64,000 nt of DNA from an uncultured Marinomonas sp. (GTDB lineage: Bacteria > Pseudomonadota > Gammaproteobacteria > Pseudomonadales > Marinomonadaceae): NCBI GenBank assembly GCA_947493575.1, contig CANLRQ010000007.1, positions 40,208 to 104,207 on the forward strand. Reading direction: 5' to 3'. Under the pieces are notes generated by a model. The model ran no database searches, was not told where the DNA came from, and saw only the letters and a program-made list of their open reading frames with translations. The position numbers and the translations under genes are program-made. Below, piece by piece: positions 6,333 through 61,920 of the stretch. Position 1 is the first letter of the stretch; each line of letters starts with the position of its first letter.

Positions 6333-6358
6333 AAAAAGCCAACTTTCGTTGGCTTTTT
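6333..6358. terminator. Bidirectional intrinsic terminator between gsk and cheW
   Basis: AAAAAGCCAAC-TTTC-GTTGGCTTTTT perfect hairpin. Confidence 0.85.
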
Positions 6359-6395
6359 AATTATTTCATCACATAGAAATTAGACAATGTTCAAA

Positions 6396-6902: not shown

Positions 6903-7018
6903 GGCTTACATCCGTTTTGATTCTGTTTAAGAGAGTAAATTTGCTAACCAATTTCACTAGCGGTTATACATAGTTTAGCGAAAAGTTAGCAGATTTACCT
7001 TATTTTTTTAAGTAACAA

Positions 7019-7888: not shown

Positions 7889-7900
7889 AACTAACTCCAA

Positions 7901-8908
7901 CTAATTAAAATTCACTAATCCAACGGATTTTCTTAATTCTTTCAACAAACTTTGAGCACGAGCACGTGCTTTTTTAGCCCCAGCTTGAAGAATTTCTTCA
8001 ACAACTTCAGGTGAAGCCATTAATTCATTATATTTTTCTCTAGCTTCTGATAATTCACTATTAACCAACTCAAACAACTCTTTCTTAGCTTGACCCCAAG
8101 CAATGCCATCGGCAAACTTTTGTCGCATTTCAGCCGTTTGCTCTGGTGTTGCAAAAGCTTGATAGATTTCAAATACTGTTGAACCTTCTGGATCTTTCGG
8201 TTCACCCGGTTCTAATAAGTTGGTTACAATCTTATTAATGGCTTTTTTCAGTTTCTTTTCACCTTCAAAAAGAGGAATAGTATTGTTATAACTCTTACTC
8301 ATTTTTCGACCGTCTAAGCCCTTTAGCAAAGACGTTTCATCCCCGACTACCGCTTCTGGTAATACAAAGTGTTGTCCAAAAATGTGATTAAAACGTCCAG
8401 CAATGTCACGCGCCATTTCAATATGCTGGATTTGATCTCGGCCTACAGGCACTTTTTTTGCGTTGAAAGCTAAAATATCAGCCGACATTAACACAGGATA
8501 GCAAAATAGCCCCATGGTAATACCATAATCCGCATCTTGATCGGCCGATACATTTTCATCTACCGCAGCTTTATATGCATGAGAGCGATTCATTAAACCT
8601 TTACCAGTCACGCAGGTAAGCAACCAATTTAGTTCCGCAATTTCTGGAATATCAGATTGACGGTAGAAAGTCGCTTTTTCAGGATCTAATCCACAAGCTA
8701 GCCAAGTGGCTGCAATTTCCAAACGAGATTGTTGAACTCTAGCTGGATCATGGCATTTTATTAATGCATGAAAATCTGCCAGAAAAAAATACGTTTCATT
8801 ACTATCAATACGACTTGCTTCAATTGATGGACGAATTGCGCCTACATAATTACCTAAATGAGGCGTGCCTGTCGTCGTAATGCCTGTTAAAACAATCTCT
8901 TTCGTCAT
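7901..8908 (-). CDS. trpS: Tryptophanyl-tRNA synthetase
   Basis: HLGN (HIGH-like), [14 protein letters not shown]. Confidence 0.96.
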
Positions 8909-9042
8909 GTGTTCCTACTTAACTCACAAATAAAATTTGATGCCTACACTAACATAATAATCTGCTTTCAAAAATCAGACTCTACTTAAAATAATTGGGA
9001 CTCTCTGAAAAAGTTCAATTACTCAACTTAAGATTCTATTGA

Positions 9043-48077: not shown

Positions 48078-48095
48078 TGAAGGTTTATTTAAAAA

Positions 48096-48231
48096 TTCAT
48101 TAACCCATTTTTCAGCTGTTAATGGATTATCTAAAAAAATTATTCGCAAGAAACGAACGCCTACTATAAGAAAGTTAATACAAAAAAGCCAAGCCCGTAT
48201 TTTTAATAGGAAGCTTGGCTTAGGTTTGTCT
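48096..48231 (+). repeat. Direct repeat bounding the RM cassette (copy 1), containing a terminator hairpin
   Basis: Near-identical to 61770-61920; includes AAAAAAGCCAAGC...GCTTGGCTT. Confidence 0.92.
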
Positions 48232-48237
48232 ATAAAT

Positions 48238-51200: not shown

Positions 51201-51573
51201 TGAGCCCTTTATCTTCCGCTACTTCGTCATAATCAATCAGCTGAATGTATAAATCCTTTTTCGACGCTTCACCCGGCTTACTGCCAGATTCTCGTTTTAA
51301 TAAAAAACCATCACTTAACCATTTACAGAAGGTTTTATTACTTTCATATAAGTCACCTACAGGCAAGGTTTCGAGCTGTAGGATAATGCTGTCAATTTCA
51401 CCTGTGGTGATTTCATCAGCAGCATAGCGATTAGCTAAATAGGTTCGCAAGTCATCTTTAATGAGCACTTGTTCTGGCGAACGAATTAGCTCGACTCCTG
51501 AGGTGTAGGGAAAGCCTTGCTCACCAAGTAACTCGATAATGGCTGCTTCTAATTGTGCTTCTGTAAATTTCAT
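48238..51573 (-). CDS. hsdR: Type I restriction enzyme R subunit
   Basis: PDGILYINGLPVVVFEFK nuclease motif, GATGCGKS, DEAH, FTGTP, VDMWLTGFDVP, QTISRVNR; start ATG 51573. Confidence 0.96.
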   Translation of the reverse strand: MKFTEAQLEAAIIELLGEQGFPYTSGVELIRSPEQVLIKDDLRTYLANRYAADEITTGEIDSIILQLETLPVGDLYESNKTFCKWLSDGFLLKRESGSKPGEASKKDLYIQLIDYDEVAEDKGLTLPAEQPLTMAAEPAAVYQFTDLKKGNAPHNIFKIVNQLEIDSPSADNSKRIPDGILYINGLPVVVFEFKSAIREEQASLHHAYEQLTIRYRRDIPQLFVFNALCIISDGVNNKMGNVFAPYDFYYAWRKVTGDESIEQDGINGLHTMLQGLFDKARLCDVIRNFIYFPDKSKDEVKIVCRYPQYYASRKLYENIKKERKLISLDGSVAGGSGKGGTYFGATGCGKSFTMQFLSRLLMKSVEFESPTIVLITDRTDLDDQLSKQFSNAKSYIGDDHILNVESRDKLRELLKGRQSGGVFLTTIHKFTEDIELLTRRTNVICISDEAHRSQVNLDQKISISETGPNAGVRRTYGFAKYLHDSLPNATFVGFTGTPIDATLDVFGKVIDAYTMSESVKDEITVRIVYEGRAAKVLLNNAKLEEIEAYYKQCEEAGTNEHQIEESKKATSSMNSILGDPDRIRTLAKDFVEHYEARVNEGSTIKGKAMFVSSSREIAYLFYQELEELRPEWFEIKEAEDATQYTEQERKGDISAEKLAKPMERVKMVMTRGKDDPEALYNLLGTKEYRKELDRQFKNDKSNFKIAIVVDMWLTGFDVPFLDTIYIDKPLQKHNLIQTISRVNRKFAGKHKGLVVDYIGIKTAMNKALAQFSKSEETNFEDINQSVIAVKDHLDLLNRIFHKFDSSPYFTGEPVAQLNCLNNAAEFVLSVGKLEKRFMALVKRLKAAYDVCCGSEKLSQNERDFIHFYLAVRSIIYKLTKGDAPDTTQMNVKVREMIAEALNSDGVEEIFKLGNDDGEIDIFDEDYLAKIDKIKLPNTKIMLLQKMLAKAIDEMKKVNLAQGVDFTKRFKALVEKYNERKEEDVLVSEVLEDFSDEIINMFTDLKTEMDSNDDLGISFEEKAFYDILKSLAVKYDFTYPDDKLIELSQAVKEVVDDKAKYTDWNNRDDIKAELKVDLIMLLARFGYPPVSRDEVYKEIFTQAENFKKNRAV

Positions 51574-51824
51574 TATTTTATAACCTTCCAATGGCCTGTT
51601 TTAGCAGAGCCTACACATTCAATATAATTATGATCTTGAAGCACTTTAAGATGCCGTTCAATGGTGCGCAATGACTTATTTAAATGCATAACCAACGCCT
51701 GTATTGTTATATTGAGCGTTTGTTGTAATCGCAATAACAACTGCTGTTGTAACTTAGAGAGTTTTACCCCTTCATTTTGGTTAGCAGCACTTGTGACGAC
51801 TGCATCAAGGATCACCTGTAACAT
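51573..51824 (-). pseudogene. C-terminal relic of a Fic-type protein with a winged-HTH tail
   Basis: IEFMLQVILDAV (frame open upstream of the Met), then an HTH ending GSAKTGHWKV; no Fic catalytic motif left. Confidence 0.55.
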
Positions 51825-51845
51825 AAACTCAATGCGTGGAACGAA

Positions 51846-53279
51846 TTAAAAGCACACTGAAAAATGTGTTTTTAGTAGCTTCATCATATTACGCTTTGCC
51901 TTATGTTGTTTGATGATTTGGCTGATCATAAGCTGTAGTTCGTCACAATGATTACCTTGCAGATTTTTTTCTAGCGTGAGCAATAAATCGGTTGCCTGTT
52001 GATAGGCTTGGTTGTTGCCATGATCAACCGTGGATAACACGACTCGACAATAAAGGTCGATGGCTTCTTGTGGCTGTTCCGCCACAATTAAATCGGCTAA
52101 TGTAAGCAGCTTACTCGACTCGGCTTTATGTGATTTTACCCATAAACGGGCTTTATCCAATTGCTGATGATATAGGTAAAAACTTAGTAACGAATCCGTA
52201 TCTCTAAATCGCTTCCCATAACCATTTTCAATTTGATTATCTTGAAAGATTTGCTCAACTTTAGTTTGATACTGTTCATCAATCACCCCCGTTTTTTGCT
52301 CCAGAGCAATTAATGATTTATAACCTGCAAAGTTCGGGCTTTGAGTAAATAGTTGCCACGCCAACTGCCACGCTTGGGTATATTCTTTTAAGGCAAGGCG
52401 CAACTCCACTTCAAATTTTTGGCAGCTAATTTTTGCTCGGCCGTTTTCGGCTGCGCCATAGGCTTTTTTTAACCAGTGTTCAGCTTCTAATGGGTCGTTA
52501 TTAACACATAATTTCGCAATTTCAAGGAAGTTTCTTTCATCGTAAGCGGACATTGCCATCAAACGGCATTGCTCTTGCCAATCATTATTTTGTTGCGCCT
52601 CTTTAATCAGAGGTTTAATTAAACGCTCGAAGGCGTACCTTGTCTTCCACTCACTTAAATCCATGCCTTGTTGCTGGCGTTTTTGAACTTCAATTTGGCA
52701 CAAAGCAACAAAATTATTATGCACTTGTTGTGTTAAGTTAAAGTCTTCTGGTACAGACGGAAAAACATCGTATTTGTATTCTTTATAATGCTCAAATATC
52801 CACTGGGCTTTTTCATCATCTGACCAAGCTTGCTGGTTAAATAAGTGACTTAACCGTTGATTTAATTCACCCTCTATATATAAACGATCACCGCCAGAGT
52901 CATCTACTTGCTCCAACACGGTATTTAGCCGAACAAGTGCATACAAGTTAAGTTGCCACTGTTTATCAATGGGTAACCTATCTATCGCAGTAAAAATATC
53001 AACAAACATATTATCACTGTGATTAAAGTAAGCACTGGCCTCGGCATAGCCCCAAACCTGCTTTTTCGGCAAGGCTTTGGTGATCATTTTTTTTATCTCA
53101 CCAAAACTTAACCCACCTTGATCGTTTAACATGGCAAGCTGCCAACGGCTTTGCTCCTCGGCAGACTCGCCAATATAATTAAGGATAATCTCACTCAGCT
53201 CATCAACCGATTTTTGTGTAAACCAGCTTTGTAGCTGTTTCATGATAGGGTGTTCTTCGTCGTCATAGGTTTTCATCAT
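51846..53279 (-). CDS. Hypothetical alpha-helical/TPR-like protein resembling SWIM-associated proteins, no SWIM motif visible
   Basis: 477-aa open frame, helical repeats, C-terminal HKAKRNMMKLL. Confidence 0.6.
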   Translation of the reverse strand: MMKTYDDEEHPIMKQLQSWFTQKSVDELSEIILNYIGESAEEQSRWQLAMLNDQGGLSFGEIKKMITKALPKKQVWGYAEASAYFNHSDNMFVDIFTAIDRLPIDKQWQLNLYALVRLNTVLEQVDDSGGDRLYIEGELNQRLSHLFNQQAWSDDEKAQWIFEHYKEYKYDVFPSVPEDFNLTQQVHNNFVALCQIEVQKRQQQGMDLSEWKTRYAFERLIKPLIKEAQQNNDWQEQCRLMAMSAYDERNFLEIAKLCVNNDPLEAEHWLKKAYGAAENGRAKISCQKFEVELRLALKEYTQAWQLAWQLFTQSPNFAGYKSLIALEQKTGVIDEQYQTKVEQIFQDNQIENGYGKRFRDTDSLLSFYLYHQQLDKARLWVKSHKAESSKLLTLADLIVAEQPQEAIDLYCRVVLSTVDHGNNQAYQQATDLLLTLEKNLQGNHCDELQLMISQIIKQHKAKRNMMKLLKTHFSVCF

Positions 53280-53281
53280 AG

Positions 53282-53416
53282 TTATGCTTCTGTCGCGGCT
53301 GTGATTTTAGTGTTGTTGTCAACGGGCAGGGTTAATTCACCTGTGATATAGGAATAGCCTTGCTCAGCCAGCAATTCGATAATGGCTACTTCTAATTGTG
53401 CTTCGGTAAACTTCAT
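53282..53416 (-). pseudogene. hsdR 5' stub (44-codon mini-ORF)
   Basis: MKFTEAQLEVAIIELLAEQGYSYITG matches the hsdR N-terminus at 20/26 aa, then diverges. Confidence 0.85.
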
Positions 53417-53417
53417 G

Positions 53418-54128
53418 CTACTTATTCCTTGCCAGCATATTCATAATTAGGCGAATAATGGTTTCTTTTTGTTCTGGGGCTGACTCAGCCACCAGCAACG
53501 TTAACGCAGCTAAACCCGTATCATTAATAATGGGTTAATGATTATCTCGGTATAAATGCCCATTACGGTAAAGAAAGTCGACAAATAAAAACGCCCCACT
53601 ACGTTTATTACCATCAGCAAAAGGATGATTTTTCACCACGAGCGTGTAGCGACTGACAATTTCAGCTAAGCCTTGGCTTTCATTTTTAGCGATTTCAGGA
53701 TTATTCAAGGCTTTATTAATCAGTGTTAAGGCTTGCTCTAACTCGTTACTATTTTGCTCAAAGCGTTGTTGGTTAATCGCATAACCTTTTATTAAGTAGT
53801 CTTTTAAGCGCGCGGTGGCCCATTGTCTAAAGCGCACCCCTTGTTTCGATTTAACCCGATAACCAACTGAAATAATAACATCTAAATTGTAATGATCGAC
53901 TTGGTAAACTTTACCGTCTTCAGTAGTTGTTGCATATTTTGCAACAACTGAATCAGCTATCAATTCATCTTCTTTAAATATATTACGAATATGGCGAGAA
54001 ATAACAGACTTGTCTCGGCCAAATAATAACACCATCTGTGCCTGCGATAGCCAAACGGTATCTCCTTGCAAAGCAAGAGCAAGTTCTAATACGCCATCTT
54101 CATTTTTATAAATTTCAATTTGTTTCAT
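53418..54128 (-). pseudogene. RhuM-like plus Fic/Doc domain gene with a premature stop and an apparent internal deletion
   Basis: RhuM-like YNLDVIISVGYRVKS.QG..FRQWA; Fic HPFADGNKR; in-frame TAA at 53535-53537, then PIINDTGLAALTLLVAES...* in the same frame. Confidence 0.8.
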
Positions 54129-54130
54129 AG

Positions 54131-54193
54131 CTAACCTTGCTCACCAAATAACCCTATAATAGCTGCTTCTAATTGTGCTCCTGTGAATTTCAT
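54131..54193 (-). pseudogene. hsdR 5' stub (20-codon mini-ORF)
   Basis: MKFTGAQLEAAIIGLFGEQG*, 17/20 aa identical to the hsdR N-terminus. Confidence 0.85.
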
Positions 54194-54216
54194 ATCATTC
54201 TTTTGCCATACTGCAT

Positions 54217-54729
54217 TTAATTAACAAGTAACCCATAATTTCTTGCCATTCCTTCGTTAATAACGGCTATATCAGATCTAGAAATCCCCCATAATTTTGC
54301 CTGCCTAATAAACAACGAACGTAATTTTTCCGATAAAAGCGGTAAAACATGATTAGGTGCATCAGGTATAACTAACACGAGTTTAAAGCGAATAGTAGAC
54401 CAATCAAGCTGCAATAAAGGTTGGCTAAGCTCTTCGTTGACCTGAGCTAATTTCCCTAATTTTCCCATTGAGGTCGAAACCACTGAATTTTCCAATTTTT
54501 CAAATATTTCTAGAAAATAACCGTCAAACTTTTCTTTTGATTGTTGTGGATTAGGAACACTACTTTTGGCTTCTACAAACCAAAGCAACTGTTTTGCATT
54601 GTCGTGCCAGACAAATTCGCAACTTTTAATACCTTTACTCTTTAAAACAAATTCTGATTTTTCTATTTCAAACACATCACCATCTTGGAATTCTCCAAAG
54701 TTTAGGCCTGACTCTTCTATTTGAATCAC
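54217..54729 (-). CDS. Hypothetical protein, putative PD-(D/E)xK nuclease fold
   Basis: KSCEF...WFVEAKSS pattern (acidic residue followed by ExK); 2 bp from the ATPase gene. Confidence 0.55.
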   Translation of the reverse strand: MIQIEESGLNFGEFQDGDVFEIEKSEFVLKSKGIKSCEFVWHDNAKQLLWFVEAKSSVPNPQQSKEKFDGYFLEIFEKLENSVVSTSMGKLGKLAQVNEELSQPLLQLDWSTIRFKLVLVIPDAPNHVLPLLSEKLRSLFIRQAKLWGISRSDIAVINEGMARNYGLLVN

Positions 54730-54731
54730 GG

Positions 54732-55745
54732 TTAAACTCCCTGAAATTCTTGCTCAAACAAACGCACTGACTCATTAATAATCTCATTATCAGGTAAACC
54801 CTCATTACGTAATGATGAAACGCTCCATACACCCTCATTATCGGGACTGAAACAATTTACGTCTGTTGATTGCTTGGCAATAATTGCTAATTTTTTGATT
54901 ACATAATAAGAATGTGTAGCGATAAAAAATTGAATACCTTTGTCAGCTAGCGCTTGAACAATATCAAGGAGCTGAACTATAGCTGTTGGATGAAGTGCTG
55001 ATTCCGGTTCATCGATAAAAACAACAGAATCAGGAGTTAAAAAACGATTGCCGAGTAAAATATCAAGAATGGCAATTTTCTTAATACCTTCGGCAGTATT
55101 ATGTATTGAAAATTTTGCCTTGCCTTTACGGTATAGCCACTTTGCATTTGTTTGGTCATATTCTATACGCCCCTGAAACATATCTTCCAAGCTCTTTCTT
55201 GAATCTGAAAATGCTCTATAGTTCCGACCACTTTGTGTTGGGTTTTGTAATGCTACTACTAAATCAGCATACGTTGCATCATAGCCAAATACGCGATCTT
55301 GTACTGCACTTTTTAGAATAACTTGGCTTAATGACAAAACTTCTTTTGGAGGTAAAAATATCGAATTAGCCAACCTAGGGGATAAGTTATTATGTAAAGG
55401 GGTTACTTTCTTATGTGTACTGTGTCCGAATTCAAAAGCCAAGCTTGTGTTGTCACATGTTGTAAATGATGTTTTTAATTTATTATCTTTACCATTACGA
55501 ACTAAATCACTTAATTTTTCAGTTTGAAATGTCCAATAGAGTTTATCACTCAATACTTCTGAGAAATCTCGGTTATCGTCACCACGACCAAACTCTTCTT
55601 GTGAACGTATAATGCTGTATAACAGTTTCAACAAAAACGTCTTACCACTACTGTTCTGCCCTATAATGAGGTTGATGGGACTTAAGCTATTTACAATCAC
55701 CTCTTTAATTGGACCGCAATTTTGAATACTAAACTCTTTAATCAC
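54732..55745 (-). CDS. ABC/SMC-like ATPase (AAA_15/AAA_21 type)
   Basis: Walker A GQNSSGKT, signature-like AEGIKK, Walker B/D-loop FIDEPESALHP, H-loop ATHS. Confidence 0.88.
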   Translation of the reverse strand: MIKEFSIQNCGPIKEVIVNSLSPINLIIGQNSSGKTFLLKLLYSIIRSQEEFGRGDDNRDFSEVLSDKLYWTFQTEKLSDLVRNGKDNKLKTSFTTCDNTSLAFEFGHSTHKKVTPLHNNLSPRLANSIFLPPKEVLSLSQVILKSAVQDRVFGYDATYADLVVALQNPTQSGRNYRAFSDSRKSLEDMFQGRIEYDQTNAKWLYRKGKAKFSIHNTAEGIKKIAILDILLGNRFLTPDSVVFIDEPESALHPTAIVQLLDIVQALADKGIQFFIATHSYYVIKKLAIIAKQSTDVNCFSPDNEGVWSVSSLRNEGLPDNEIINESVRLFEQEFQGV

Positions 55746-55804
55746 TTAGTTTCCCCCCTGCAAAGTATGTGCTAATGGTAATTGATTTAATAAGTAGAAA
55801 AAAC

Positions 55805-57220
55805 TCATTGTGCAGCGTCCTTGTTTATCGTCAACTCGCCTGAGATGAGTTTTGGTAGTAATGTATCCCTGAGTTTTTCCAATGATTTTATACTATTGTT
55901 GTTACTCAATAGTTTGGCTGAAAAAGTATTTAACGTTTTATTGAATTCTAATAAAACAGTTTCATCAGGTAAAAGGAACTGAATACTCCTAAGAGCTTTT
56001 AGAGAAATATATTTTTGGGTCGTTCCAGCAAGCAATGAATCAATATGGTTTTGCATACTTTGACTTTTTAAAAGCTGATAAAAATAATGCTTTAGCGTTT
56101 CCTTTTCTGAGGTTCTTAGAAGCCCAATATTCTTAATAGCGAAATCTACATTCTGTTGTATAACTAGATATGGAACACCTACAGTACCAATCATGGTGAT
56201 TAATATATCACCGCTTTCAACCCTACTCCTAGCATTAACCTTTTTGTAGTCTTCTTCACTAATTAAGTAAGCATCTTCAATTTTCAAACTACCATCAGTG
56301 ATATGCTTTGAGGTTATTAATGGGTAGCCTAAATCACTTTTTTTAGGCGAGTCATGTGTGCCATCTCTTACATCAATTTCTTTACCACTAATTGCTAACT
56401 TCCAACCAATAGGTATCCAGCCGTTGATGCCGATTGATGGTTCATCGGTTTGTTCAAATTCGCTTGGGAAGAGTTGACGAATGTCTTTGGGCAGTGGTTT
56501 GGTTCCATGCTCTCCATTAGCAATTTGTTGTTGCACTTGTTGGCGTTGCTGTTGTCTAAAAAGTGCTTTTTTCTGCAAGGCTTCTGGGAAGTCGTTAACC
56601 GCCATACCGCTAGCAAGTGCGTTGTCAAAAACAGGATCAAAATCAACAAACCAGCTTTTAAATAACGCTTGCGCCATTTGCTCTAGGGTTTGGTTGGTTT
56701 GGGTGTTGTGTTTAATTTTTTGGTCTAAAACATAAAGTGTATTTCCAATAGATTTTTGATGCTTAAAGGAGGGAAAATTAAATTTTAGAGAAAGAATATC
56801 ACCAACTTTTATACTAGGTTGAGCAGCCCCTCGATTTAAATTAGTTAAGCTAACTCTATTGCCTCTCAAAAGGTAATAGAGAAATAAATTATCAAATCCC
56901 TCTTTAGTTCTTAGACCTATTGTATTTTGTATAATTATACATTGCTCTTCAGGGCTAATCGCTACCTTTCCATAACCGTTACCTACTAACGTAAGTAATA
57001 CATCTTTAGGTTGGTTATATTTACGAATAAATGTTTCGTAAAGATCTGGGCTTATATATCTTTTAACTTCACTTAATTTTGGTTCGCCTTCGCTTATTAT
57101 TAAATAGTTATCAATTACAGGTATTCCTGTATCAGAGTAACTACTAGGATTTCTTCCCCTATTATCGATCACCAAATCTACAATTTCTGAAAGAGTAAAT
57201 TCTTGCCATTTATTCACCAT
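55805..57220 (-). CDS. hsdS: Type I RM specificity subunit
   Basis: Two TRDs, conserved KIKHNTQTNQTLEQMAQALFKSWFVDFDPV and LRDTLLPKLISGEL. Confidence 0.95.
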   Translation of the reverse strand: MVNKWQEFTLSEIVDLVIDNRGRNPSSYSDTGIPVIDNYLIISEGEPKLSEVKRYISPDLYETFIRKYNQPKDVLLTLVGNGYGKVAISPEEQCIIIQNTIGLRTKEGFDNLFLYYLLRGNRVSLTNLNRGAAQPSIKVGDILSLKFNFPSFKHQKSIGNTLYVLDQKIKHNTQTNQTLEQMAQALFKSWFVDFDPVFDNALASGMAVNDFPEALQKKALFRQQQRQQVQQQIANGEHGTKPLPKDIRQLFPSEFEQTDEPSIGINGWIPIGWKLAISGKEIDVRDGTHDSPKKSDLGYPLITSKHITDGSLKIEDAYLISEEDYKKVNARSRVESGDILITMIGTVGVPYLVIQQNVDFAIKNIGLLRTSEKETLKHYFYQLLKSQSMQNHIDSLLAGTTQKYISLKALRSIQFLLPDETVLLEFNKTLNTFSAKLLSNNNSIKSLEKLRDTLLPKLISGELTINKDAAQ

Positions 57221-57281
57221 AACCTAACTCCTCCAAGTTTTGGCAAATCGCTTTATCTAACTTCTCGGCCTGCTCCATTTG
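57210..57281 (-). pseudogene. hsdM 3' stub overlapping the hsdS start
   Basis: QMEQAEKLDKAICQNLEELGYGE* versus the true hsdM end QMEQAEELDKAIRQNLEVLGYGN* (19/23 aa). Confidence 0.88.
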
Positions 57282-57321
57282 CCACTGCTGTTGATTTGAG
57301 CAAGGGGTTTTGTTGCATGTG

Positions 57322-58383
57322 CTATTCATATTCACCGTCCTGTGCTTGTTGCTGTTGTTCGAGCTGCTGTTGTACACGCTCTCGCTCTTTTTCTAGCTCA
57401 ATACGCAGTTCTTCTTCGCTGGGTAAATAGGGTAAGTATTTGGCGGCAAACAGCTGCTTTTGCTCGCTCAGTACAGAGTATTTTACGACCGCTTCACTTT
57501 TTTCACTGCACAGTACTAAACCTATGGTTGGGTTATCGTTTGGTTCTTTCATTTGCTCGTTGTATAGTCGAATATAGGTATCCATTTGCCCTACATCTTG
57601 ATGCTTTAATTTGCCAACTTTTAAATCGACCAGTAAAAAACATTTAAGCTTGAAGTTGTAAAAAACCAAATCAATGTAAAAGTCTTCATCGTCAAAACGT
57701 ATTCGCTGTTGACGCTCAACAAACGCAAAGCCTTTACCTAGCTCTAATAAAAATTGCTGTAAATTATTGATAATACCTTGTTCAAGGTCGGACTCTTGAT
57801 AGCTTTTGTCCTGTAAATTTAAAAAGTCGAGTATGTAAGGATCGCGCAAGTAATCTTTGTTGGTCTCTGCTAATGCTTGCGTTTTTTCTGTGGCTTCTTG
57901 TTCTACGGGCAGCTTCTCTTTACTTGCTAATAAGCGTTCGTAATAGAGGTTGCCTTTCTGCCGTTCGAGTGCTCTGACACTCCAGTTTTGTTGTAGCGCC
58001 TCTTGTTGATACCAATGCCGGGCGTTTTTATTTTCTATGCGGGCTAACACATTGTAATGTGACCAACTTAATTCGAGAGACACTGTCTCCTGTTTTTCAA
58101 ACGCCTGATAAAAACGGCGCATATTACGCAAGTTAGAAATATCAAAACCTTTACCAAAGTCTGCTGTTAGCTGTTTTGAAAGTTGCTGTAACTGTGCCTT
58201 GCCATATTCGGCTCTACTTTTACCTTGCTGCTCGTCTTCTACAATTAAGCGGCCAATATGCCAATAGGCTTGCACCATGGCACTATTAACGGTTTGTTTA
58301 ACTTGGCTGCGCGCGTTAGCAATAATCTGTGTTATTTCTGCTATTAATTGCTTTTGATTATTCGCCGATACTTTACTTGCCAT
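57322..58383 (-). CDS. YhcG/DUF1016-family PD-(D/E)xK nuclease-domain protein
   Basis: AYWHIGRLIVE, LSWSHY, RDPYILDFL, FLLELGKGFAFV.RQ, IDLVFY...VDLKVG; start MASKV at 58383. Confidence 0.92.
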   Translation of the reverse strand: MASKVSANNQKQLIAEITQIIANARSQVKQTVNSAMVQAYWHIGRLIVEDEQQGKSRAEYGKAQLQQLSKQLTADFGKGFDISNLRNMRRFYQAFEKQETVSLELSWSHYNVLARIENKNARHWYQQEALQQNWSVRALERQKGNLYYERLLASKEKLPVEQEATEKTQALAETNKDYLRDPYILDFLNLQDKSYQESDLEQGIINNLQQFLLELGKGFAFVERQQRIRFDDEDFYIDLVFYNFKLKCFLLVDLKVGKLKHQDVGQMDTYIRLYNEQMKEPNDNPTIGLVLCSEKSEAVVKYSVLSEQKQLFAAKYLPYLPSEEELRIELEKERERVQQQLEQQQQAQDGEYE

Positions 58384-59848
58384 GATCCAATACCTCCCAA
58401 TGGCCAGTTTTGGCTGAGCCATGACGCTTGATATAGTTATGTTTTTTTAACCACTTTATATTATTTTCTATGGCAGTTTTGCTGATGCTGATTATGTGTG
58501 CCAACTCTGTGGCGGAAATAGTGTTATTTTTCATGATTGCTATCATAATTTTTTTACGGTTATCGCCCAACCTATCACCCAACCCATCACCCAACCTATC
58601 ACCCAACCTATCACCCAACTTATCAATTGCCTTGGTAGATGTTTTGTTATCTAACGGTTTTTTTTGTGACTTGTTCTTGTTAACGACTTGGGTATTTATT
58701 CTAGGAAATTCCCAATCAATAAAGTCCCCAGTTTCTGTTAATGTTGGCAAAGCAACATCGGTATCTTGGCAATATTGCTTAATACGCGCTATGCCACTGC
58801 CCCATTGTTCAACAAGGTTAAGCTGTTTAAATACTCGGGCAATCACTGTGTTACGAATTTCTGAGCGGCCTTTAAGCACGTCACTCATTGTTAAACCGTT
58901 AGGTAAGCCACCTGGGGAAACAATGTTTAAAATATCATCGTAAACGCCTATTTTTATATCACGACCAACATTACTGTAATCTCGGTGCATAACGGCATTT
59001 AATAGGGCTTCGCGAATTGCGGGAATGGGGATTTCATAGGTGTCGGTTCGTTGTAAGCCTAACACCTCTGCATGTAAATGAAGGTGATTTTTGATAAAAG
59101 CTTCGGCTTGTTCTAATTGGCTAAAAATATCATTGCTATATTCTTTTTTATCTATAAATACAGCCATGGTATTACCTTTAAAACGACTGCACTTAATTTC
59201 TACATGCTCATAATGCCCCAATAAAATAAGCAAACCTATTGTGGGATACAGCTTATTAGCTGAATTTGAGCGGTCGTATTTTATCAGCTTGAGGTTTAAT
59301 AATTGCTGCTGATCAAGTGATTTATTTAATTGGTTAAACCTTGAGGTTAGGGGCGTTAAGTCAAGTTGGTCTAACTCTACCTCGTAGTCTATTTGTTCAT
59401 CAAAACTTATATTGCGCCTTTGTAACTCAAGTTCGGCTATTTTTTCTTGTCCAGCTACACGGTTGGTTGCGGCTAAACGAATATAACAAGCGGGAGCTTT
59501 GCCTTGTTGTTTTAGGTAATAGGGTAGCGATGGACCTCGAAAGACTTCAATCACTAAAAGCTCTACATTGTTAATATTTTCAATATAGATTTCGGGTAAT
59601 AATGTTGGCGCGCAGTAATCATAAATAATGGATGACACCCGATCTTTTAATTCAAAAATATCAACGTCACCCAAGCCAATTAAGCCGCGTTGGTCGTCAA
59701 CACCTATTATTAATTTACCACCCGCCGTGTTAGCAAAAGCGACTAAGGTTTTAGCTAATGCATCACCTTTAGGAAGTTGCTGCTTAAACTCTAGTACTTT
59801 AGATTCACCCTGCTGTATTTCAATATATAAAGGGTGCTTAATTTCCAT
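58373..59848 (-). CDS. Schlafen/AlbA_2 domain plus HATPase_c_4 plus wHTH protein (RM-associated ATP-binding protein)
   Basis: GESKVLEFK...VAFANTAGGKLIIGVDD; REALLNAVMHRDY; SPGGLP; RNTVIARVF; EQWGSGI. Confidence 0.88.
   Translation of the reverse strand: MEIKHPLYIEIQQGESKVLEFKQQLPKGDALAKTLVAFANTAGGKLIIGVDDQRGLIGLGDVDIFELKDRVSSIIYDYCAPTLLPEIYIENINNVELLVIEVFRGPSLPYYLKQQGKAPACYIRLAATNRVAGQEKIAELELQRRNISFDEQIDYEVELDQLDLTPLTSRFNQLNKSLDQQQLLNLKLIKYDRSNSANKLYPTIGLLILLGHYEHVEIKCSRFKGNTMAVFIDKKEYSNDIFSQLEQAEAFIKNHLHLHAEVLGLQRTDTYEIPIPAIREALLNAVMHRDYSNVGRDIKIGVYDDILNIVSPGGLPNGLTMSDVLKGRSEIRNTVIARVFKQLNLVEQWGSGIARIKQYCQDTDVALPTLTETGDFIDWEFPRINTQVVNKNKSQKKPLDNKTSTKAIDKLGDRLGDRLGDGLGDRLGDNRKKIMIAIMKNNTISATELAHIISISKTAIENNIKWLKKHNYIKRHGSAKTGHWEVLDHGK
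58561..58620. repeat. In-frame 12-bp VNTR (5 copies, encoding LGDR-like units)
   Basis: TATCACCCAACC x5 with single variants. Confidence 0.9.
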
Positions 59849-61508
59849 AACCCAGCACCTCCAAATTTTGACGAATCGCTTTGTCTAGCTCTTCTGCCTG
59901 TTCCATTTGGCTATATAAGGTTTGGCTTAGCTCTTTCATTTTAACTTCAAATGGGACGCCATCGTCTTCAATTTCGGCAGCACCCACGTAACGACCCGGT
60001 GTTAATACGTAATCGTTGGCTTTGATGGACGTTCTCGGCTTCCTGCCTTCCACGTCACTAGTACTTCCCTGTACGTCGTCATCAAGTGGCACACTGGCAC
60101 AAAAGCCTGCGATATCCTGATAATCGCCATCGAGTTTTTTCCATTCATGGTAGGTACGAGCGATTTCAGCGATATCATCTGTGGTTAATTCTTTATTGGT
60201 ACGGCTGATCATTGAGCCCATTTCACGAGCATCAATAAATAAGGTTTCACCTTGGCGGTTGCGGGTCGCTCCTGTGCGTCCTGCACCCGCGACATTAGTG
60301 TTTCCTTGCACGTCATAGCCTGCGGTGCCTTTCTTGTTTTTGGTGATAAACCATAAACACACTGGAATTTGTGTGGTGTAGAAAAGCTGCCCCGGTAAGG
60401 CGATCATACAATCCACTAGGTCTTGCTCGATGATTTTTTGGCGAATGGCACCTTCACCGCTGGTATTTGAGCTCATTGAGCCATTGGCTAGTACAAAACC
60501 CGCGGTGCCGTTTTCACTGAGTTTTGAGATCATGTGCATGATCCACGCGTAGTTGGCATTGCCTGTTGGTGGTACATCAAAGCCCGCCCAACGGCCATCG
60601 TCGACTAATTCACTATCAGAGCGCCATTGTTTTTGGTTGAATGGTGGATTTGCCATGATAAAGTCAGCTTTTAAATCTGGGTGTTGGTCTTTAAAAAAGC
60701 TGTCTCCGGCCACTTCACCTAAATTACCTGAAATACCGCGAACTGCTAGGTTCATTTTGGCTAGCTTGTAGGTGGTGTTGGTGTATTCCTGACCGTAAAT
60801 TGAAATGTCTTTGCGGTTGCCTTTGTGGCTGTCGATAAACTTTAACGACTGCACAAACATACCACCTGAGCCACAACAGGGATCGTAAATTTTACCTTTA
60901 TAAGGCTCTATCATTTCAGCAATGAGTGCTACCACTGATTTTGGCGTATAGAACTCTCCCCCGCCTTTACCTTCGCTTGAGGCAAACTTACCTAAGAAAT
61001 ATTCGTAAACTCGACCAACTAAATCTTCCTCGGTCATTTCACATTCGCTAGCCGCAGTGTCGATGTTGTTAATCGTATCGATAAGTGAGGCAAGCTTGCT
61101 GGTAACAAGCCCTAAACGGCTAAAATAGTTTTCTGGTAATGCACCTTTTAATGACGGGTTGTTCTTTTCAACCGTGTGCAATGCGGTATCAATTTTTACC
61201 GCAATGTCGTCTTGCTTCATGTTCTTTTTTATAAAGGTCCAACGAGCCTCTTCTGGCAGATAGAACACGTTGTCCTGCATGTAAAACTCAACTTGGTCAA
61301 TAAAGTCACCCATGCCACCGTCAATCAAGGCTTGGCGTTTGTCTTCAAACTTATCACTGATAAATTTTAAGAAAATAAGACTTAATACCACATGCTTGTA
61401 TTCAGACGATTCAACACTACCACGTAGCTTATTCGCGGTATCCCATAAGGTTTCTTCAAAATTGGTGTTATTGGAAGCGCTACTTTTTTTGCTTTTAGCG
61501 GTTGTCAT
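59838..61508 (-). CDS. hsdM: Type I RM methyltransferase subunit (m6A)
   Basis: GEFYTP, DPCCGSGG, ANPPFN, LTPGRYVG; start MTTAKS at 61508. Confidence 0.96.
   Translation of the reverse strand: MTTAKSKKSSASNNTNFEETLWDTANKLRGSVESSEYKHVVLSLIFLKFISDKFEDKRQALIDGGMGDFIDQVEFYMQDNVFYLPEEARWTFIKKNMKQDDIAVKIDTALHTVEKNNPSLKGALPENYFSRLGLVTSKLASLIDTINNIDTAASECEMTEEDLVGRVYEYFLGKFASSEGKGGGEFYTPKSVVALIAEMIEPYKGKIYDPCCGSGGMFVQSLKFIDSHKGNRKDISIYGQEYTNTTYKLAKMNLAVRGISGNLGEVAGDSFFKDQHPDLKADFIMANPPFNQKQWRSDSELVDDGRWAGFDVPPTGNANYAWIMHMISKLSENGTAGFVLANGSMSSNTSGEGAIRQKIIEQDLVDCMIALPGQLFYTTQIPVCLWFITKNKKGTAGYDVQGNTNVAGAGRTGATRNRQGETLFIDAREMGSMISRTNKELTTDDIAEIARTYHEWKKLDGDYQDIAGFCASVPLDDDVQGSTSDVEGRKPRTSIKANDYVLTPGRYVGAAEIEDDGVPFEVKMKELSQTLYSQMEQAEELDKAIRQNLEVLGYGN
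60027..60077 (-). repeat. 51-bp in-frame repeat insertion in hsdM (DVQGSTSDVEGRKPRTS)
   Basis: Related to 60264-60314 (18/24 nt identical at the 5' end, same length). Confidence 0.7.
60264..60314 (-). repeat. 51-bp in-frame repeat insertion in hsdM (DVQGNTNVAGAGRTGAT)
   Basis: Interrupts the FITKNK...R.GETLFIDAR region; related to 60027-60077. Confidence 0.7.
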
Positions 61509-61546
61509 GTGCTTTCGTCCTTTAAAAATTTTCACTTTTATACTTA

Positions 61547-61686
61547 AAGGCCTGTGCACGAAGTTATGAGCGATGATAAGACGAGGCAAAAACAGACGAA
61601 AAAGCGGAGTTTATAAATTATAAATACACATTTTGAGTCTATTTTTAACAAAGTATTAGCAAGCGTAATAGTCGTGCAAAGGTCTC
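61547..61686. mobile_element. MITE family A, 140 bp, 5-bp TSD ACTTA, in the hsdM upstream region
   Basis: AAGGCCTGTGCACG...CGTGCAAAGGTCTC; ACTTA on both flanks. Confidence 0.85.
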
Positions 61687-61769
61687 ACTTAAATTTTTTA
61701 TCAATGGCTCGATGTAACGATACGTCCCACTTCAGGCATACTTTCAAGCAGCGCTACTTTATCAAAAAC

Positions 61770-61920
61770 TTCATTAACCCATTTTTCAGCTGCTAATGGA
61801 TTATCTAGAAAAAATTATTCGCAAGAAACGAACGCCTACTATAAGAAAGTTACTATAAAAAAGTTACTATAAAAAAGCCAAGCTCGTATTTTTAATAGGA
61901 AGCTTGGCTTAATGTTGTCT
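61770..61920 (+). repeat. Direct repeat bounding the RM cassette (copy 2), includes the likely dcd terminator
   Basis: Matches 48096-48231, with an extra ~14-bp tandem duplication (AAGTTACTATAAAA). Confidence 0.92.

What the first reader, a model, noticed from the sequence alone, without database searches (positions are those of the whole stretch)
51571..59909. Integrase-free cassette array in the RM operon: cargo genes punctuated by duplicated hsdR starts and an hsdM end
Seen, in transcription order: hsdM, Schlafen-ATPase, YhcG, [hsdM 3' stub 57210-57281, still overlapping the hsdS ATG], hsdS, ABC-ATPase, nuclease-like gene, [hsdR stub 54131-54193], RhuM-Fic pseudogene, [hsdR stub 53282-53416], 477-aa protein, Fic relic, hsdR. 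Each hsdR start lies directly after a cargo stop (24 bp, 1 bp, or TAATG overlap). The stubs differ from hsdR and from each other (17/20 and 20/26 aa), so they probably came from different donor alleles. Inference: cargo is added serially by recombination anchored on conserved hsd gene ends, each arriving already coupled for translation and leaving a scar. Older cargo decays. This behaves like an integron for RM-linked defence genes but without attC or IntI, and the stub peptides might themselves be translated.
Basis: partly seen in the sequence, partly recalled or inferred. Interest (0 to 1): 0.78.

Follow-up and report, generated by a model that had tools for sequence, protein, structure and literature searches.

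The report
Recombination scars in a restriction-modification operon
A bacterial restriction-modification operon carrying extra anti-phage genes contains short leftover pieces of its own core genes, and these mark the points where differently loaded versions of the operon were spliced together by recombination, without any integrase.

Summary
The minus-strand operon 61508-48238 reads hsdM, SLFN-ATPase, YhcG, hsdM-3' stub, hsdS, HEC-02A/B, hsdR-5' stub A, decayed RhuM-Fic, stub B, PDC-S62 (477 aa), Fic relic, hsdR. The stubs are far above chance: 3 hits against 0 expected for the hsdR start, and 2 against 0 for the hsdM end.

New findings:
- Stub B is a chimera. hsdR codons 1-26 are fused in frame, at a TCAGGnGAATTA microhomology, to the last ~18 codons of an hsdS. 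In five other genomes that hsdS tail sits directly before S62.
- Each stub preserves a junction that is intact elsewhere: HEC-02B-hsdR, RhuM-Fic-hsdR, hsdS-S62, hsdM-YhcG.
- L010 and L002 form a before/after pair. The stub is the recipient's old hsdR start, and the cargo arrives with its own hsdR start.
- Stubs recur in independent assemblies but are uncommon.
- Stub ORFs bridge stop to start between neighbouring genes.

Best explanation: recombination between differently loaded hsd operons. Exchange is normally scarless, through the conserved hsd gene ends. Occasional out-of-register microhomology joins add cargo and leave stubs. The stubs persist because they carry the downstream gene's translation start region.

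The integron analogy is loose. Embedding of defence genes in such operons is already known (Payne 2024). The scars and the mechanism were not found described.

The parts
59838..61508 (-). hsdM (type I methyltransferase), intact. Its stop overlaps the ATG of the next gene by 11 nt.
   Evidence: Pfam N6_Mtase 1.5e-101 and HsdM_N. PADLOC MTase_I. ATG read from the sequence.
58373..59848 (-). Cargo 1: SLFN_AlbA_2 / HATPase_c_4 / wHTH protein (491 aa). Contains a 12-nt x 5.4 tandem repeat (LGDR linker).
   Evidence: Pfam. Tandem repeat 58561-58625.
58373..58400 (-). Micro-scar. The last 8 codons of the SLFN ORF (EVLDHGK*) plus the YhcG ATG equal an hsdM-3'-end/YhcG-start junction, about 22/26 nt by eye against L007.
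   Evidence: Sequence comparison with L007 5425-5460.
57322..58383 (-). Cargo 2: YhcG/DUF1016 PD-(D/E)XK nuclease (PADLOC PDC-S02).
   Evidence: Pfam YhcG_C 6.7e-57 and DUF1016_N. PDC-S02 1.2e-145.
57210..57329 (-). Relay ORF (39 codons). Its ATG overlaps the YhcG stop by 8 nt and its stop overlaps the hsdS ATG by 11 nt. Its last 23 codons (57281-57210) are the hsdM 3' stub.
   Evidence: tblastn E 5e-7. Equivalent ORFs in L007, L020, L059 and L076/77 (a called 31-aa gene).
55805..57220 (-). hsdS (specificity subunit), intact. Its C-terminal tail is ..LISGELTINKDAAQ*.
   Evidence: Pfam Methylase_S, two stretches. PADLOC Specificity_I.
54217..55745 (-). Cargo 3: HEC-02A (ABC/AAA_21 ATPase, 55745-54732) and HEC-02B (170 aa, 54729-54217).
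   Evidence: PADLOC HEC-02A 2.8e-147 and HEC-02B 4.1e-52. The same pair, with an hsdS tail before it and an hsdR stub after it, is in L084.
54131..54193 (-). hsdR 5' stub A. 20 hsdR codons then TAG. Lies 23 nt after the HEC-02B stop and 2 nt before the RhuM-Fic ATG.
53418..54128 (-). Cargo 4: RhuM-Fic pseudogene. In-frame 267-bp internal deletion and an in-frame TAA at 53535-53537. The natural stop lies 1 nt before stub B.
   Evidence: Alignment with the intact 324-aa genes of L002 and L001. Pfam. One internal stop.
53339..53416 (-). Stub B, part 1: hsdR codons 1-26. This is the hsdR start that natively follows RhuM-Fic.
   Evidence: tblastn E 5e-8. The native RhuM-Fic-hsdR junction is seen in L001, L002 and L076.
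53282..53338 (-). Stub B, part 2: last ~18 codons of an hsdS (ELTLPVDNNTKITAATEA*), fused in frame to part 1 at a TCAGGnGAATTA microhomology. It carries the region just upstream of the S62 start codon.
   Evidence: Comparison with the hsdS ends directly upstream of S62 in L001, L007, L045, L065 and L076.
51846..53279 (-). Cargo 5: 477-aa PDC-S62 family protein, from the clade lacking the SWIM domain.
   Evidence: PADLOC PDC-S62 1.5e-172, profile positions 100-565 of 566. Homologues of 477-482 aa without the SWIM domain, and 564-592 aa with it.
51573..51824 (-). Fic relic. The last 83 codons (wHTH) of a Fic-wHTH gene. Its stop overlaps the hsdR ATG (TAATG).
   Evidence: 61% identity to the C-terminus of the 335-aa Fic protein of L007.
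48238..51573 (-). hsdR (restriction subunit), intact, 1111 aa counted from MKFTEAQ.
   Evidence: Pfam HSDR_N, SWI2_SNF2, T1R_D3-like and T1RH-like_C. PADLOC REase_I.
48084..48231 (.). Left copy of a ~150-bp direct repeat flanking the whole 13.7-kb hsd island. Starts 7 nt after the hsdR stop.
   Evidence: the repeat finder D2/D4/D5, 90-96% identity. Sequences.
61758..61920 (.). Right copy of the island-flanking direct repeat. It holds the terminator-like hairpin that follows dcd and, by my reading, the start of a ParE-like relic.

Best explanation
The locus is one tightly packed type I restriction-modification operon. Its slots (hsdM to hsdS, and hsdS to hsdR) hold anti-phage genes of the kind already known to be embedded in such systems. 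The array was built by recombination between related hsd operons that carried different cargo.

Two modes of exchange:
- Scarless replacement (usual). Crossovers fall in the conserved hsd gene ends that flank a slot: the hsdM 3' end, the LLPKLISGEL-coding end of hsdS, and the hsdR 5' end. Cargo is swapped and no scar remains.
- Scarred addition (occasional). One crossover is homologous and the other is an out-of-register join at a few bases of microhomology. This resembles homology-facilitated illegitimate recombination. The left part of one operon, running into the first 20-26 codons of its hsdR, is then joined to the right part of another, starting inside the gene that preceded its cargo. 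Both cargo sets are kept and short hsd fragments are left at the seam.

Why stubs form and persist. Neighbouring genes overlap or lie within 23 nt of each other, so there is essentially no neutral intergenic DNA to insert into. Only products that bring along the 3' end of the former upstream gene stay expressed, because that end carries the ribosome-binding region of the downstream gene. This is why the stubs persist as small ORFs running from the stop of one gene to the start of the next.

What is shown and what is inferred:
- Shown: the anatomy, the chimeric scar, the native junctions elsewhere, the before/after pair, the recurrence, and the decay of cargo.
- Inferred: the homologous crossover on the other side, the route of DNA entry, and that stub ORFs are translated and matter for expression of the downstream gene.
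For: 1. Stub B is a direct hsdR-5'::hsdS-3' fusion at a shared TCAGG(T/C)GAATTA. Its hsdS tail (..GELTLPxDNxKxTAATEA) is the tail that immediately precedes S62 in L001, L007, L045, L065 and L076.
2. Every stub keeps a junction that is intact elsewhere:
   - HEC-02B, ~25 nt, hsdR: L084.
   - RhuM-Fic, hsdR: L001, L002, L076.
   - hsdM end overlapping the YhcG start: L007, L076.
   - Fic, hsdR: L007, L080-83.
3. Before/after pair. L010 has c461, 26 nt, hsdR(ATG). L002 has the same genes, then c461, 26 nt, stub, RhuM-Fic, hsdR(TTG).
   - The stub differs from the L010 hsdR at about 3 of the first ~52 nt and is 66/78 identical to it, against 57/78 to its own hsdR.
   - The TTG-start hsdR allele travels with RhuM-Fic in L001, L002 and L076.
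4. Third-position bias of stub-versus-resident differences (20/35, p = 0.003).
5. Nearest relatives change segment by segment along the locus. Scaffold genes are mostly 84-94% nt identical across genera, while the cargo in the same slots differs.
6. Stub ORFs bridge stop to start in the window, L007, L020, L059 and L076. L076 keeps a 37-aa ORF made of the first and last codons of RhuM-Fic.
7. No integrase or transposase nearby, no Rfam hit, and only short, imperfect, scattered inverted repeats.
Against: - The homologous half of each event is inferred from mosaic similarity, not seen directly.
- For the window itself there is no before/after pair, and the stubs are too short to assign donors: stub-resident identity equals ordinary between-allele identity.
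- Three of the seven loci with cargo between hsdM and hsdS have no detectable stub, so a stub is not required for expression.
- Recurrence of the same stub+cargo modules in different contexts also fits the rival view that stubs serve as homology arms. Examples: YhcG+stub in 4 loci, HEC-02+stub in 2, the scar+S62 in 2.
- No expression or read data exist for this organism.
Confidence: 0.68

Rival explanations
1. Integron-like cassette system run by general recombination. The stubs are functional, portable homology arms. A cargo gene flanked by an hsd fragment can be moved by RecA into any related hsd operon, or looped out between the stub and the resident gene. Stubs would then be the working 'sites' of a cassette exchange system rather than passive scars.
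For: - The same cargo+stub modules recur next to different neighbours:
  - YhcG + hsdM stub in the window (after SLFN), L007, L076 and L020, whose hsdR is only 65% identical.
  - HEC-02AB + hsdR stub of nearly the same length in the window and L084.
  - The hsdR::hsdS scar + S62 after RhuM-Fic in the window and after a reverse transcriptase in L080-82.
- Stubs are direct repeats of 60-78 nt at 79-88% identity to the resident gene ends.
- The whole island is also flanked by 150-bp direct repeats.
Against: - Most cargo boundaries in 75 related loci have no stub.
- The stubs are diverged and partly decayed, for example two Glu-to-Gly changes in stub A and decay in the L002 stub.
- Breakpoints differ between loci: codon 5, 20-21, 26 and ~200.
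- No excision or empty-site product was seen. The only reads available are low-similarity metagenome contigs.
- Recurrence is equally explained by inheritance of an old scar followed by ordinary recombination around it.
Confidence: 0.2
2. Local tandem duplications of the hsdR start and the hsdM end within this one locus, followed by neutral decay. Cargo was inserted separately.
For: The copies are direct repeats in one operon, and their identity to the resident gene (79-88%) could reflect age.
Against: - Stub B is fused to an hsdS tail of a different type from the resident hsdS.
- Each stub sits at a junction that is native in other genomes.
- Differences are third-position biased.
- Homologous scars occur in other genera.
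- The L002 stub matches L010 better than its own hsdR.
Confidence: 0.03
3. The stub ORFs encode functional peptides in their own right, for example HsdR N-terminal or HsdM C-terminal mimics that modulate assembly of the restriction complex.
For: - The stub ORFs are open, start at or near upstream stops, and are conserved as ORFs in several loci.
- The HsdM C-terminal stub peptide is fairly conserved (QxEQAExLDKAIxQNLExLGYGE).
Against: - Conservation is strongest over the last ~9 codons, which hold the GGAGG ribosome-binding site and the overlapping hsdS start.
- Stub A has non-conservative changes and stub B is a chimera with no common sequence.
- The upstream extensions of the relay ORFs are unrelated between loci.
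Confidence: 0.04
4. Assembly or annotation artefact.
For: One apparent hsdS duplicate in L022 did prove to be a scaffold-gap artefact: identical sequence on both sides of an N run.
Against: - The window copies are diverged, in frame and precisely placed.
- There are no N runs in the stub regions that were read.
- Equivalent scars are present in isolate genomes and in several independent metagenome assemblies.
Confidence: 0.01

Closest known systems
Defence genes embedded in type I RM, BREX, DISARM and Hma systems ('guilt-by-embedding', Payne et al. 2024 bioRxiv 10.1101/2024.01.29.577857). Classic cases: PrrC in EcoprrI, TgvAB in Vibrio cholerae VPI-2, RloF in a Campylobacter jejuni type I RM operon.
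   Same: - Cargo genes nested between hsd genes on the same strand.
- All intact cargo except the SLFN protein match the HEC/PDC models derived from that work strongly (HEC-02, PDC-S02, PDC-S05/S23, PDC-S62). The SLFN protein has only weak PADLOC hits.
- HEC-02 relatives were listed there among the tested Hma-embedded candidates.
   Different: That work catalogues what is embedded and leaves open how and why embedding arises. Its text has no mention of recombination or truncation, and systems with pseudogenes were filtered out. Here the hsd fragments at cargo boundaries give a record of how the array was assembled.
Integron cassette arrays (IntI, attI, attC)
   Same: A same-strand array of mostly promoterless adaptive genes behind a common upstream region. 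Genes are gained and lost as modules. Short repeated sequences punctuate the array.
   Different: - No IntI, and no attC-like structured sites.
- The repeats are fragments of the flanking coding genes.
- There is no single insertion point.
- Joins are at microhomology, and stubs are rare rather than obligatory.
Homology-facilitated illegitimate recombination during natural transformation (de Vries and Wackernagel 2002, Acinetobacter; also described in Streptococcus pneumoniae and Pseudomonas stutzeri). Cited from my own knowledge; not checked in the library.
   Same: One homologous anchor plus one join at a few bases of microhomology. Foreign DNA is added next to the anchor. This explains why the stub is the recipient's old gene start while the cargo brings a new one (L010/L002).
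   Different: - Described from laboratory selections, not as the builder of defence-gene arrays.
- Dependence on transformation or RecA is untested here.
- Here both partners are collinear operons, so the product keeps one working copy of each hsd gene.
Phase-variable type I systems with silent partial hsdS genes (for example the pneumococcal SpnD39III/ivr locus; epigenetic invertons, PMC7672463)
   Same: Partial hsd gene copies lie inside or beside a type I locus and are substrates or products of recombination.
   Different: Those are inverted hsdS target-recognition-domain copies shuffled by a dedicated recombinase to change specificity. Here the copies are direct-repeat fragments of hsdR, hsdM and hsdS ends at cargo boundaries, and no recombinase is present.
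Genomic islands flanked by a duplicated gene end (for example tRNA 3' ends at att sites)
   Same: Insertion restores a working copy of the target gene and leaves a partial duplicate at the other end. The whole hsd island here also has 150-bp flanking direct repeats.
   Different: Islands use a site-specific integrase and a fixed att core. Here breakpoints vary and no integrase is present.

Membership tests
Type I restriction-modification system (hsdM-hsdS-hsdR) | HsdM with N6 methyltransferase domain, HsdS with two target-recognition regions, HsdR with nuclease, SF2 motor and C-terminal domains, each intact and present once. | tested here: met
   Pfam and PADLOC hits over full length. No internal stops in hsdS or hsdR or in the hsdM ORF.
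Type I restriction-modification system (hsdM-hsdS-hsdR) | Sequence-specific methylation and restriction activity. | not testable with these tools
   Needs methylome sequencing or restriction assays.
Embedded defence systems (Payne et al. 2024) | Non-system genes nested between genes of a multi-gene defence system, on the same strand. | tested here: met
   Five cargo units between hsdM and hsdR, all on the minus strand.
Embedded defence systems (Payne et al. 2024) | Cargo matches HEC/PDC candidate models. | tested here: met
   HEC-02A 2.8e-147, HEC-02B 4.1e-52, PDC-S02 1.2e-145, PDC-S23 7.8e-80, PDC-S62 1.5e-172. The SLFN protein has only weak hits.
Embedded defence systems (Payne et al. 2024) | Anti-phage activity of the cargo. 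| not testable with these tools
   Needs plaque assays. The paper's discussion places HEC-02-type systems among its tested candidates.
Integron | IntI tyrosine recombinase gene adjacent to the array. | tested here: not met
   No recombinase domain in ORFs within 12 kb to the left. dcd and an mrp-like gene lie to the right. None inside the island.
Integron | attC recombination site (imperfect inverted repeat) at the end of each cassette. | tested here: not met
   Inverted repeats in the region are short (18-32 nt), 72-83% complementary and scattered, not at cargo ends. The boundaries instead hold hsd coding fragments.
Integron | Promoterless cassettes in one orientation, read from a common upstream promoter. 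| tested here: inconclusive
   One orientation and tight spacing. Promoter-like and terminator-like sites are not above the shuffled expectation. No transcript data.
Homology-facilitated illegitimate recombination product | Novel joint at a short microhomology between otherwise unrelated positions. | tested here: met
   hsdR codon 26 joined to hsdS codon about -18 at TCAGG(T/C)GAATTA. SLFN end joined to the hsdM end at GAGGT.
Homology-facilitated illegitimate recombination product | Homologous crossover (anchor) on the other side of the inserted DNA. | tested here: inconclusive
   Nearest neighbours change along hsdR and hsdM, and the TTG-start hsdR allele is linked to RhuM-Fic. No crossover point is mapped.
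Homology-facilitated illegitimate recombination product | A pre-insertion state exists in which the recipient gene is intact at the same place. | tested here: met
   L010 against L002. Not available for the window itself.
Homology-facilitated illegitimate recombination product | Dependence on RecA and DNA uptake. | not testable with these tools
   Needs genetics.
Phase-variable hsdS shufflon | Inverted partial hsdS copies plus a site-specific recombinase. | tested here: not met
   All hsd fragments are direct repeats and no recombinase is present.
Integrase-mediated genomic island | Flanking direct repeats (att) and an integrase. | tested here: not met
   150-bp direct repeats flank the island, but there is no integrase.

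The most novel reading that the evidence does not exclude
Fragments of hsd gene ends act as portable homology arms. Defence genes embedded in type I RM operons would then form a RecA-driven, integrase-free cassette exchange network across genera. Stub-bounded modules (YhcG+hsdM stub, HEC-02+hsdR stub, the hsdR::hsdS scar+S62) would be gained, stacked and lost by general recombination, and relay ORFs would be kept by selection so that each new arrival is expressed at once.
Probability: 0.22. Interest if true: 0.78.

Novelty: new variant of a known kind. Interest (0 to 1): 0.55.

Why it matters
That defence genes are embedded inside restriction-modification and related systems is established and is used to discover new defences. 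How the genes get there, and why they sit so precisely, is stated to be unexplored.

These scars give a readable assembly history:
- Arrays grow by splicing differently loaded operons at their conserved gene ends.
- Tight translational packing dictates which products survive.
- Decayed cargo leaves short bridging ORFs.

If this is general, it explains three things:
- How defence repertoires turn over without mobile-element machinery.
- That hsd fragments can be used as markers to date and order acquisitions.
- Why pipelines that discard loci with pseudogenes or tiny ORFs remove exactly the informative cases.

Tried and rejected
- Donor assignment by nearest allele. The stubs are 53/60, 65/78 and 57/72 identical to the resident genes, the same as the average between alleles of different genera. 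No donor can be named for the window's stubs.
- An apparent hsdS 3' duplicate in L022 is identical sequence on both sides of an N run. It is a scaffold-gap artefact and was dropped.
- Sequencing runs. No run of this genome is indexed. Two runs hold only 5-9% of the sampled words, as short, diverged contigs.
  - A metagenome contig joining 53436 to 51567 fits a relative with the native RhuM-Fic-hsdR junction. It is not evidence of excision.
  - A 22-nt-sided 'empty site' joint (48092 to 61638) lies in a region of very high depth in that run, so it was not trusted.
- The exact-match look-up of the window's own 477-aa protein found nothing.
- HEC-02B homologues are few (8 proteins). Of the two contexts read, one (L085) is outside any hsd operon, so only L084 was informative.
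- The ParE-like relic in the island-flanking repeat has no similarity to the ParE next to the hsd remnants in Catenovulum L083.
- Whether the L080-82 scar is the same event as stub B (with internal deletions) or an independent join could not be decided.
- Literature searches for hsd remnants, truncated hsdR, illegitimate recombination or hotspots in type I loci found embedding and hotspot descriptions only.
- Rfam: no hit.

Full report
**1. What is there**

All genes of interest lie on the minus strand. They form one tightly packed unit between an MFS transporter gene (46884-48077, plus strand) and dcd (62540-61947).

Order of transcription:

| Element | Coordinates | Identity |
|---|---|---|
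| hsdM | 61508-59838 | type I methyltransferase |
| Cargo 1 | 59848-58373 | SLFN_AlbA_2/HATPase_c_4/wHTH, 491 aa |
| Cargo 2 | 58383-57322 | YhcG/DUF1016, PADLOC PDC-S02 |
| Small ORF | 57329-57210 | 39 codons; last 23 codons copy the hsdM end |
| hsdS | 57220-55805 | specificity subunit |
| Cargo 3 | 55745-54732 and 54729-54217 | HEC-02A ATPase and HEC-02B |
| Stub A | 54193-54131 | 20 hsdR codons, then TAG |
| Cargo 4 | 54128-53418 | broken RhuM-Fic gene |
| Stub B | 53416-53282 | 44-codon ORF |
| Cargo 5 | 53279-51846 | 477 aa, PDC-S62 |
| Fic relic | 51824-51573 | 83 codons, winged-helix |
| hsdR | 51573-48238 | restriction subunit |

The three hsd genes are intact with full domain sets. 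Every junction is either an overlap (11, 11, 8, 11 and 1 nt) or a gap of 1-23 nt. The one exception is hsdS to HEC-02A, at 59 nt. Promoter-like and terminator-like sites are not above the shuffled expectation. There is no Rfam hit. No integrase or transposase lies within 12 kb on the left or in the island, and housekeeping genes lie on the right.

**2. Are the stubs real?**

Yes.
- A 33-nt hsdR-start pattern with up to 3 mismatches hits exactly three times, against 0.00 expected.
- A 28-nt hsdM-end pattern hits twice, against 0.00 expected.
- The repeat finder reports the three hsdR starts as one family of 77 nt, at 84% and 77% identity.
- tblastn gives E = 5e-8, 7e-5 and 5e-7 for the three stubs.

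The RhuM-Fic gene is a pseudogene. Compared with the intact 324-aa genes of L002 and L001 it has an in-frame 267-bp deletion and an in-frame TAA 39 codons before the natural stop. The 83-codon relic is the C-terminus of a Fic-wHTH protein that is intact (335 aa, Fic domain plus HTH_24) at the same position in L007.

**3.

*Stub B is a chimera.* Codons 1-26 are hsdR (MKFTEAQLEVAIIELLAEQGYSYITG). The remainder (ELTLPVDNNTKITAATEA*) is the end of an hsdS. In L001, L007, L045, L065 and L076 an intact hsdS ends ..LLPKLISGELTLPADNxKxTAATEAY.. and directly abuts or overlaps the start of the S62 gene. The join lies where the hsdR sequence (..TCAGGTG..GAATTA..) and the hsdS sequence (..TCAGGCGAATTAACC..) share a short run of bases. 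S62 therefore came with about 57 nt of its native upstream gene, and was fused out of register to the start of an hsdR that followed RhuM-Fic.

*A fourth small scar.* The last 8 codons of the SLFN gene plus the YhcG start (GAGGTATTGGATCATGGCAAGTAA) equal the hsdM-end/YhcG-start junction of L007 (GAGGTGTTGGGTTATGGCAAATAA).

*The 477-aa protein is not locally truncated.* Full-length family members (564-592 aa) carry an N-terminal SWIM zinc finger. A clade of 477-482-aa proteins lacking it exists in Catenovulum, Pseudoalteromonas and Colwellia.

*The whole island has flanking repeats.* The 13.7-kb island is flanked by ~150-bp direct repeats at 90-96% identity. They contain the terminator-like hairpin that follows dcd and, by my reading, the start of a ParE-like relic.

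**4. Related loci**

A scan of one genome per species with HsdR gave 75 loci. The closest, at about 90% amino-acid identity, are marine Alteromonadales: Psychrobium, Catenovulum, Thalassotalea, Colwellia, Pseudoalteromonas and Paraglaciecola.

I searched each locus with its own HsdR N-terminus and HsdM C-terminus:
- hsdR start stubs occur in 2 of 71 loci: the window (two stubs) and L002 (one).
- hsdM end stubs occur in 4 of 57 loci: the window, L007, L020 and L059. L076/L077, found through S62 homologues, also have one.
- In the gammaproteobacterial subset, hsdS follows hsdM directly in about 22-26 loci.
- Of the 7 loci with cargo between hsdM and hsdS, 4 have the stub.

Cargo between hsdS and hsdR is present in most loci, almost always without an hsdR stub. 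Stubs are therefore recurrent but are the exception. One apparent hsdS duplicate, in L022, is a scaffold-gap artefact and was discarded.

**5. Each stub preserves a junction that is native elsewhere**

| Element in the window | Native junction seen in |
|---|---|
| Stub A | L084: hsdS relic (tail ..GEITINIEVA*, like the window's ..GELTINKDAAQ*), HEC-02A (90% aa), HEC-02B (75% aa), 29 nt, then a 63-nt hsdR start followed by unrelated DNA |
| Stub B, hsdR part | RhuM-Fic directly followed by hsdR in L001, L002 and L076 |
| Fic relic | Fic directly followed by hsdR in L007 and L080-83 |
| hsdM stub | The ordinary hsdM/hsdS overlap |

L007 and L076 are simpler versions of the window:
- L007: hsdM, YhcG, hsdM stub, hsdS, S62, Fic, hsdR.
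- L076: hsdM, YhcG, hsdM stub, hsdS, S62, RhuM-Fic relic, hsdR.

The window can be read as segments of at least four differently loaded operons joined end to end.

**6. A before/after pair**

L010 (a Colwellia MAG) has hsdS, a DUF4917 protein, a 1645-aa NERD/kinase/helicase protein, a 461-aa protein, 26 nt, then hsdR starting with ATG. L002 (Catenovulum) has the same genes and the same 26 nt. It then has a stub, RhuM-Fic, and an hsdR starting with TTG.
- The stub differs from the L010 hsdR at about 3 of the first ~52 nt. It then decays and ends near codon 26.
- It is 66/78 identical to the L010 hsdR but only 57/78 identical to its own resident hsdR.
- The TTG-start allele accompanies RhuM-Fic in L001, L002 and L076.

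The stub is therefore the recipient's old gene start, and the cargo arrived together with its own hsdR start. This is the layout expected when one crossover is homologous, inside hsdR, and the other is an illegitimate join just upstream of the incoming cargo.

**7. Are the stubs old duplicates or different alleles?**

Stub-to-resident identity (88%, 83%, 79%) equals the mean identity between alleles of different genera, so no donor can be named. The differences are, however, biased to third codon positions: 20 of 35, binomial p = 0.003. True alleles show 84% of their differences at third positions. The pattern fits divergence as working alleles plus later decay. It does not fit neutral decay of a local duplicate.

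**8. Mosaicism**

In 300-nt steps the nearest relative changes repeatedly along the locus. For example, the first part of YhcG is 78-79% identical to L007/L076 while its last part is 91% identical to L076. S62 is 88% identical to its best matches at its start and 77-80% further on. The hsd scaffold genes are mostly 84-94% identical in nucleotide sequence to loci from several genera whose slots hold quite different cargo.

The hsdS tail after the conserved LLPKLISGEL goes with the downstream cargo. The TLPADN..TAATEAY tail precedes S62, and the TINxxA tail precedes HEC-02. This fits routine, scarless exchange of cargo by homologous crossovers in the conserved hsd ends. Stubs would arise only when a crossover is out of register.

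**9. Why the stubs persist**

Genes overlap or nearly touch, so the ribosome-binding region of each gene lies in the end of the gene before it. A moved gene stays expressed only if that end travels with it. An insertion between a cargo stop and an overlapping hsdR start must fall inside hsdR and must bring a new hsdR start.

The stub ORFs are open and run from stop to start:
- In the window, L020 and L059 the ATG of the hsdM-stub ORF overlaps the stop codon of the upstream cargo, and in L076 it lies just upstream of that stop. In the window, L020 and L076 the ORF's own stop overlaps the hsdS ATG.
- In L059 a 211-aa gene follows the stub, with hsdS after it. In L007 a shortened YhcG reads in frame into the stub.
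- L076 keeps a 37-codon ORF made of the first ~24 and last ~13 codons of RhuM-Fic, exactly bridging S62 and hsdR.
- The window's Fic relic does the same.

Selection to keep the operon translated throughout, for coupling and to avoid polarity, is a reasonable inference. It is not shown, and three loci with cargo between hsdM and hsdS have no detectable stub.

**10. Comparison with what is known**

Embedding of defence genes in type I RM, BREX, DISARM and Hma systems is established (Payne et al. 2024). PrrC and TgvAB are worked examples. The cargo here matches the models from that work, apart from the SLFN protein, which has only weak hits. That paper says the significance and origin of embedding remain to be explored, does not mention recombination or truncation, and filtered out loci with pseudogenes. 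My literature searches found no description of hsd fragments at cargo boundaries.

The integron comparison fails on its defining features: there is no IntI and no attC. The mechanistic resemblance is to homology-facilitated illegitimate recombination, cited from my own knowledge (de Vries and Wackernagel 2002).

**11. Verdict**

The stubs are recombination scars at conserved hsd ends, and in the one resolvable case (L002) the stub comes from a different allele. They mark splicing of operon segments, not a cassette-capture system.

A more ambitious reading is that stubs serve as portable homology arms for RecA-driven cassette exchange. The recurrence of stub+cargo modules in different contexts suggests this, and the evidence does not exclude it. 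I give it about 0.2.

Noticed in passing
window 48084-48231 and 61758-61920: The whole 13.7-kb hsd island is flanked by ~150-bp direct repeats (90-96% identity). The repeat holds the terminator-like hairpin that follows dcd and, by my reading, the start of a ParE/RelE-like relic. The left copy begins 7 nt after the hsdR stop, so the repeat would supply hsdR with a terminator. There is no integrase. This may be the same duplication-on-insertion theme at island scale.
   Followed up: partly
window 58561-58625: A 12-nt tandem repeat (5.4 copies, 92% matches) inside the SLFN gene encodes a (LGDR)n linker between the HATPase_c_4 domain and the C-terminal winged helix. It could vary in length by slippage.
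   Followed up: no
L020 3870-3925: Three tandem copies of GGGGAATAAAGAAGT lie at the hsdM-end/YhcG-start junction. The unit repeats the ATGGGGAATAA motif that normally forms the hsdM stop/hsdS start overlap.
   Followed up: no
L083 (Catenovulum maritimum) 1-14600, directly upstream of L002: A remnant of a second hsd operon tail lies immediately upstream of a complete BrxR-hsdM-hsdS-...-hsdR operon. The remnant is a 98-codon hsdS tail, S62, Fic-wHTH, and about 200 codons of hsdR split into two ORFs. A Phd/ParE pair and three adjacent genes sit further upstream. Two of the three have integrase-domain hits (one of them faint), so this may be a recombinase-in-trio element.
   Followed up: partly
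L080-L082, about 110 nt upstream of S62 (e.g. L081 9913-10000): Another hsdR-start::hsdS-tail scar (ATGAAATTTACAG followed by ..ETLPADNNSKTTVATEE) lies between a 552-aa reverse transcriptase (RVT_1) gene and S62. It is either a decayed copy of the window's stub B or an independent event.
   Followed up: partly
L001 8850-9030: A YhcG relic (the SWSHYRAL motif read in one frame) lies between S62 and RhuM-Fic. This is one more decayed cargo gene in a related operon.
   Followed up: no
HsdR C-terminus, e.g. window 48300-48400 and L012, L028, L036 around 13100: The HsdR C-terminal segment (KAELKVDLIMLLARFGYPP) weakly resembles the HsdR N-terminus (KFTEAQLEAAIIELLGEQGYPY), with E of 3e-3 to 8e-3 in a small database. 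This may be an internal repeat of a short helical motif, or chance.
   Followed up: no
window 61551-61690: In run X2 (organism A) this stretch upstream of hsdM attracts contigs at depths of hundreds. That suggests a high-copy short repeat, or low-complexity AT-rich sequence, in that organism.
   Followed up: no
window 35478-37670: A LodA-type L-lysine epsilon-oxidase gene (LodA_N and LodA_C domains).
   Followed up: no
L022 8235-8335: Identical hsdS 3' sequence on both sides of a run of N. This is a scaffold-gap duplication that mimics a stub, and is a caution for automated stub surveys.
   Followed up: yes
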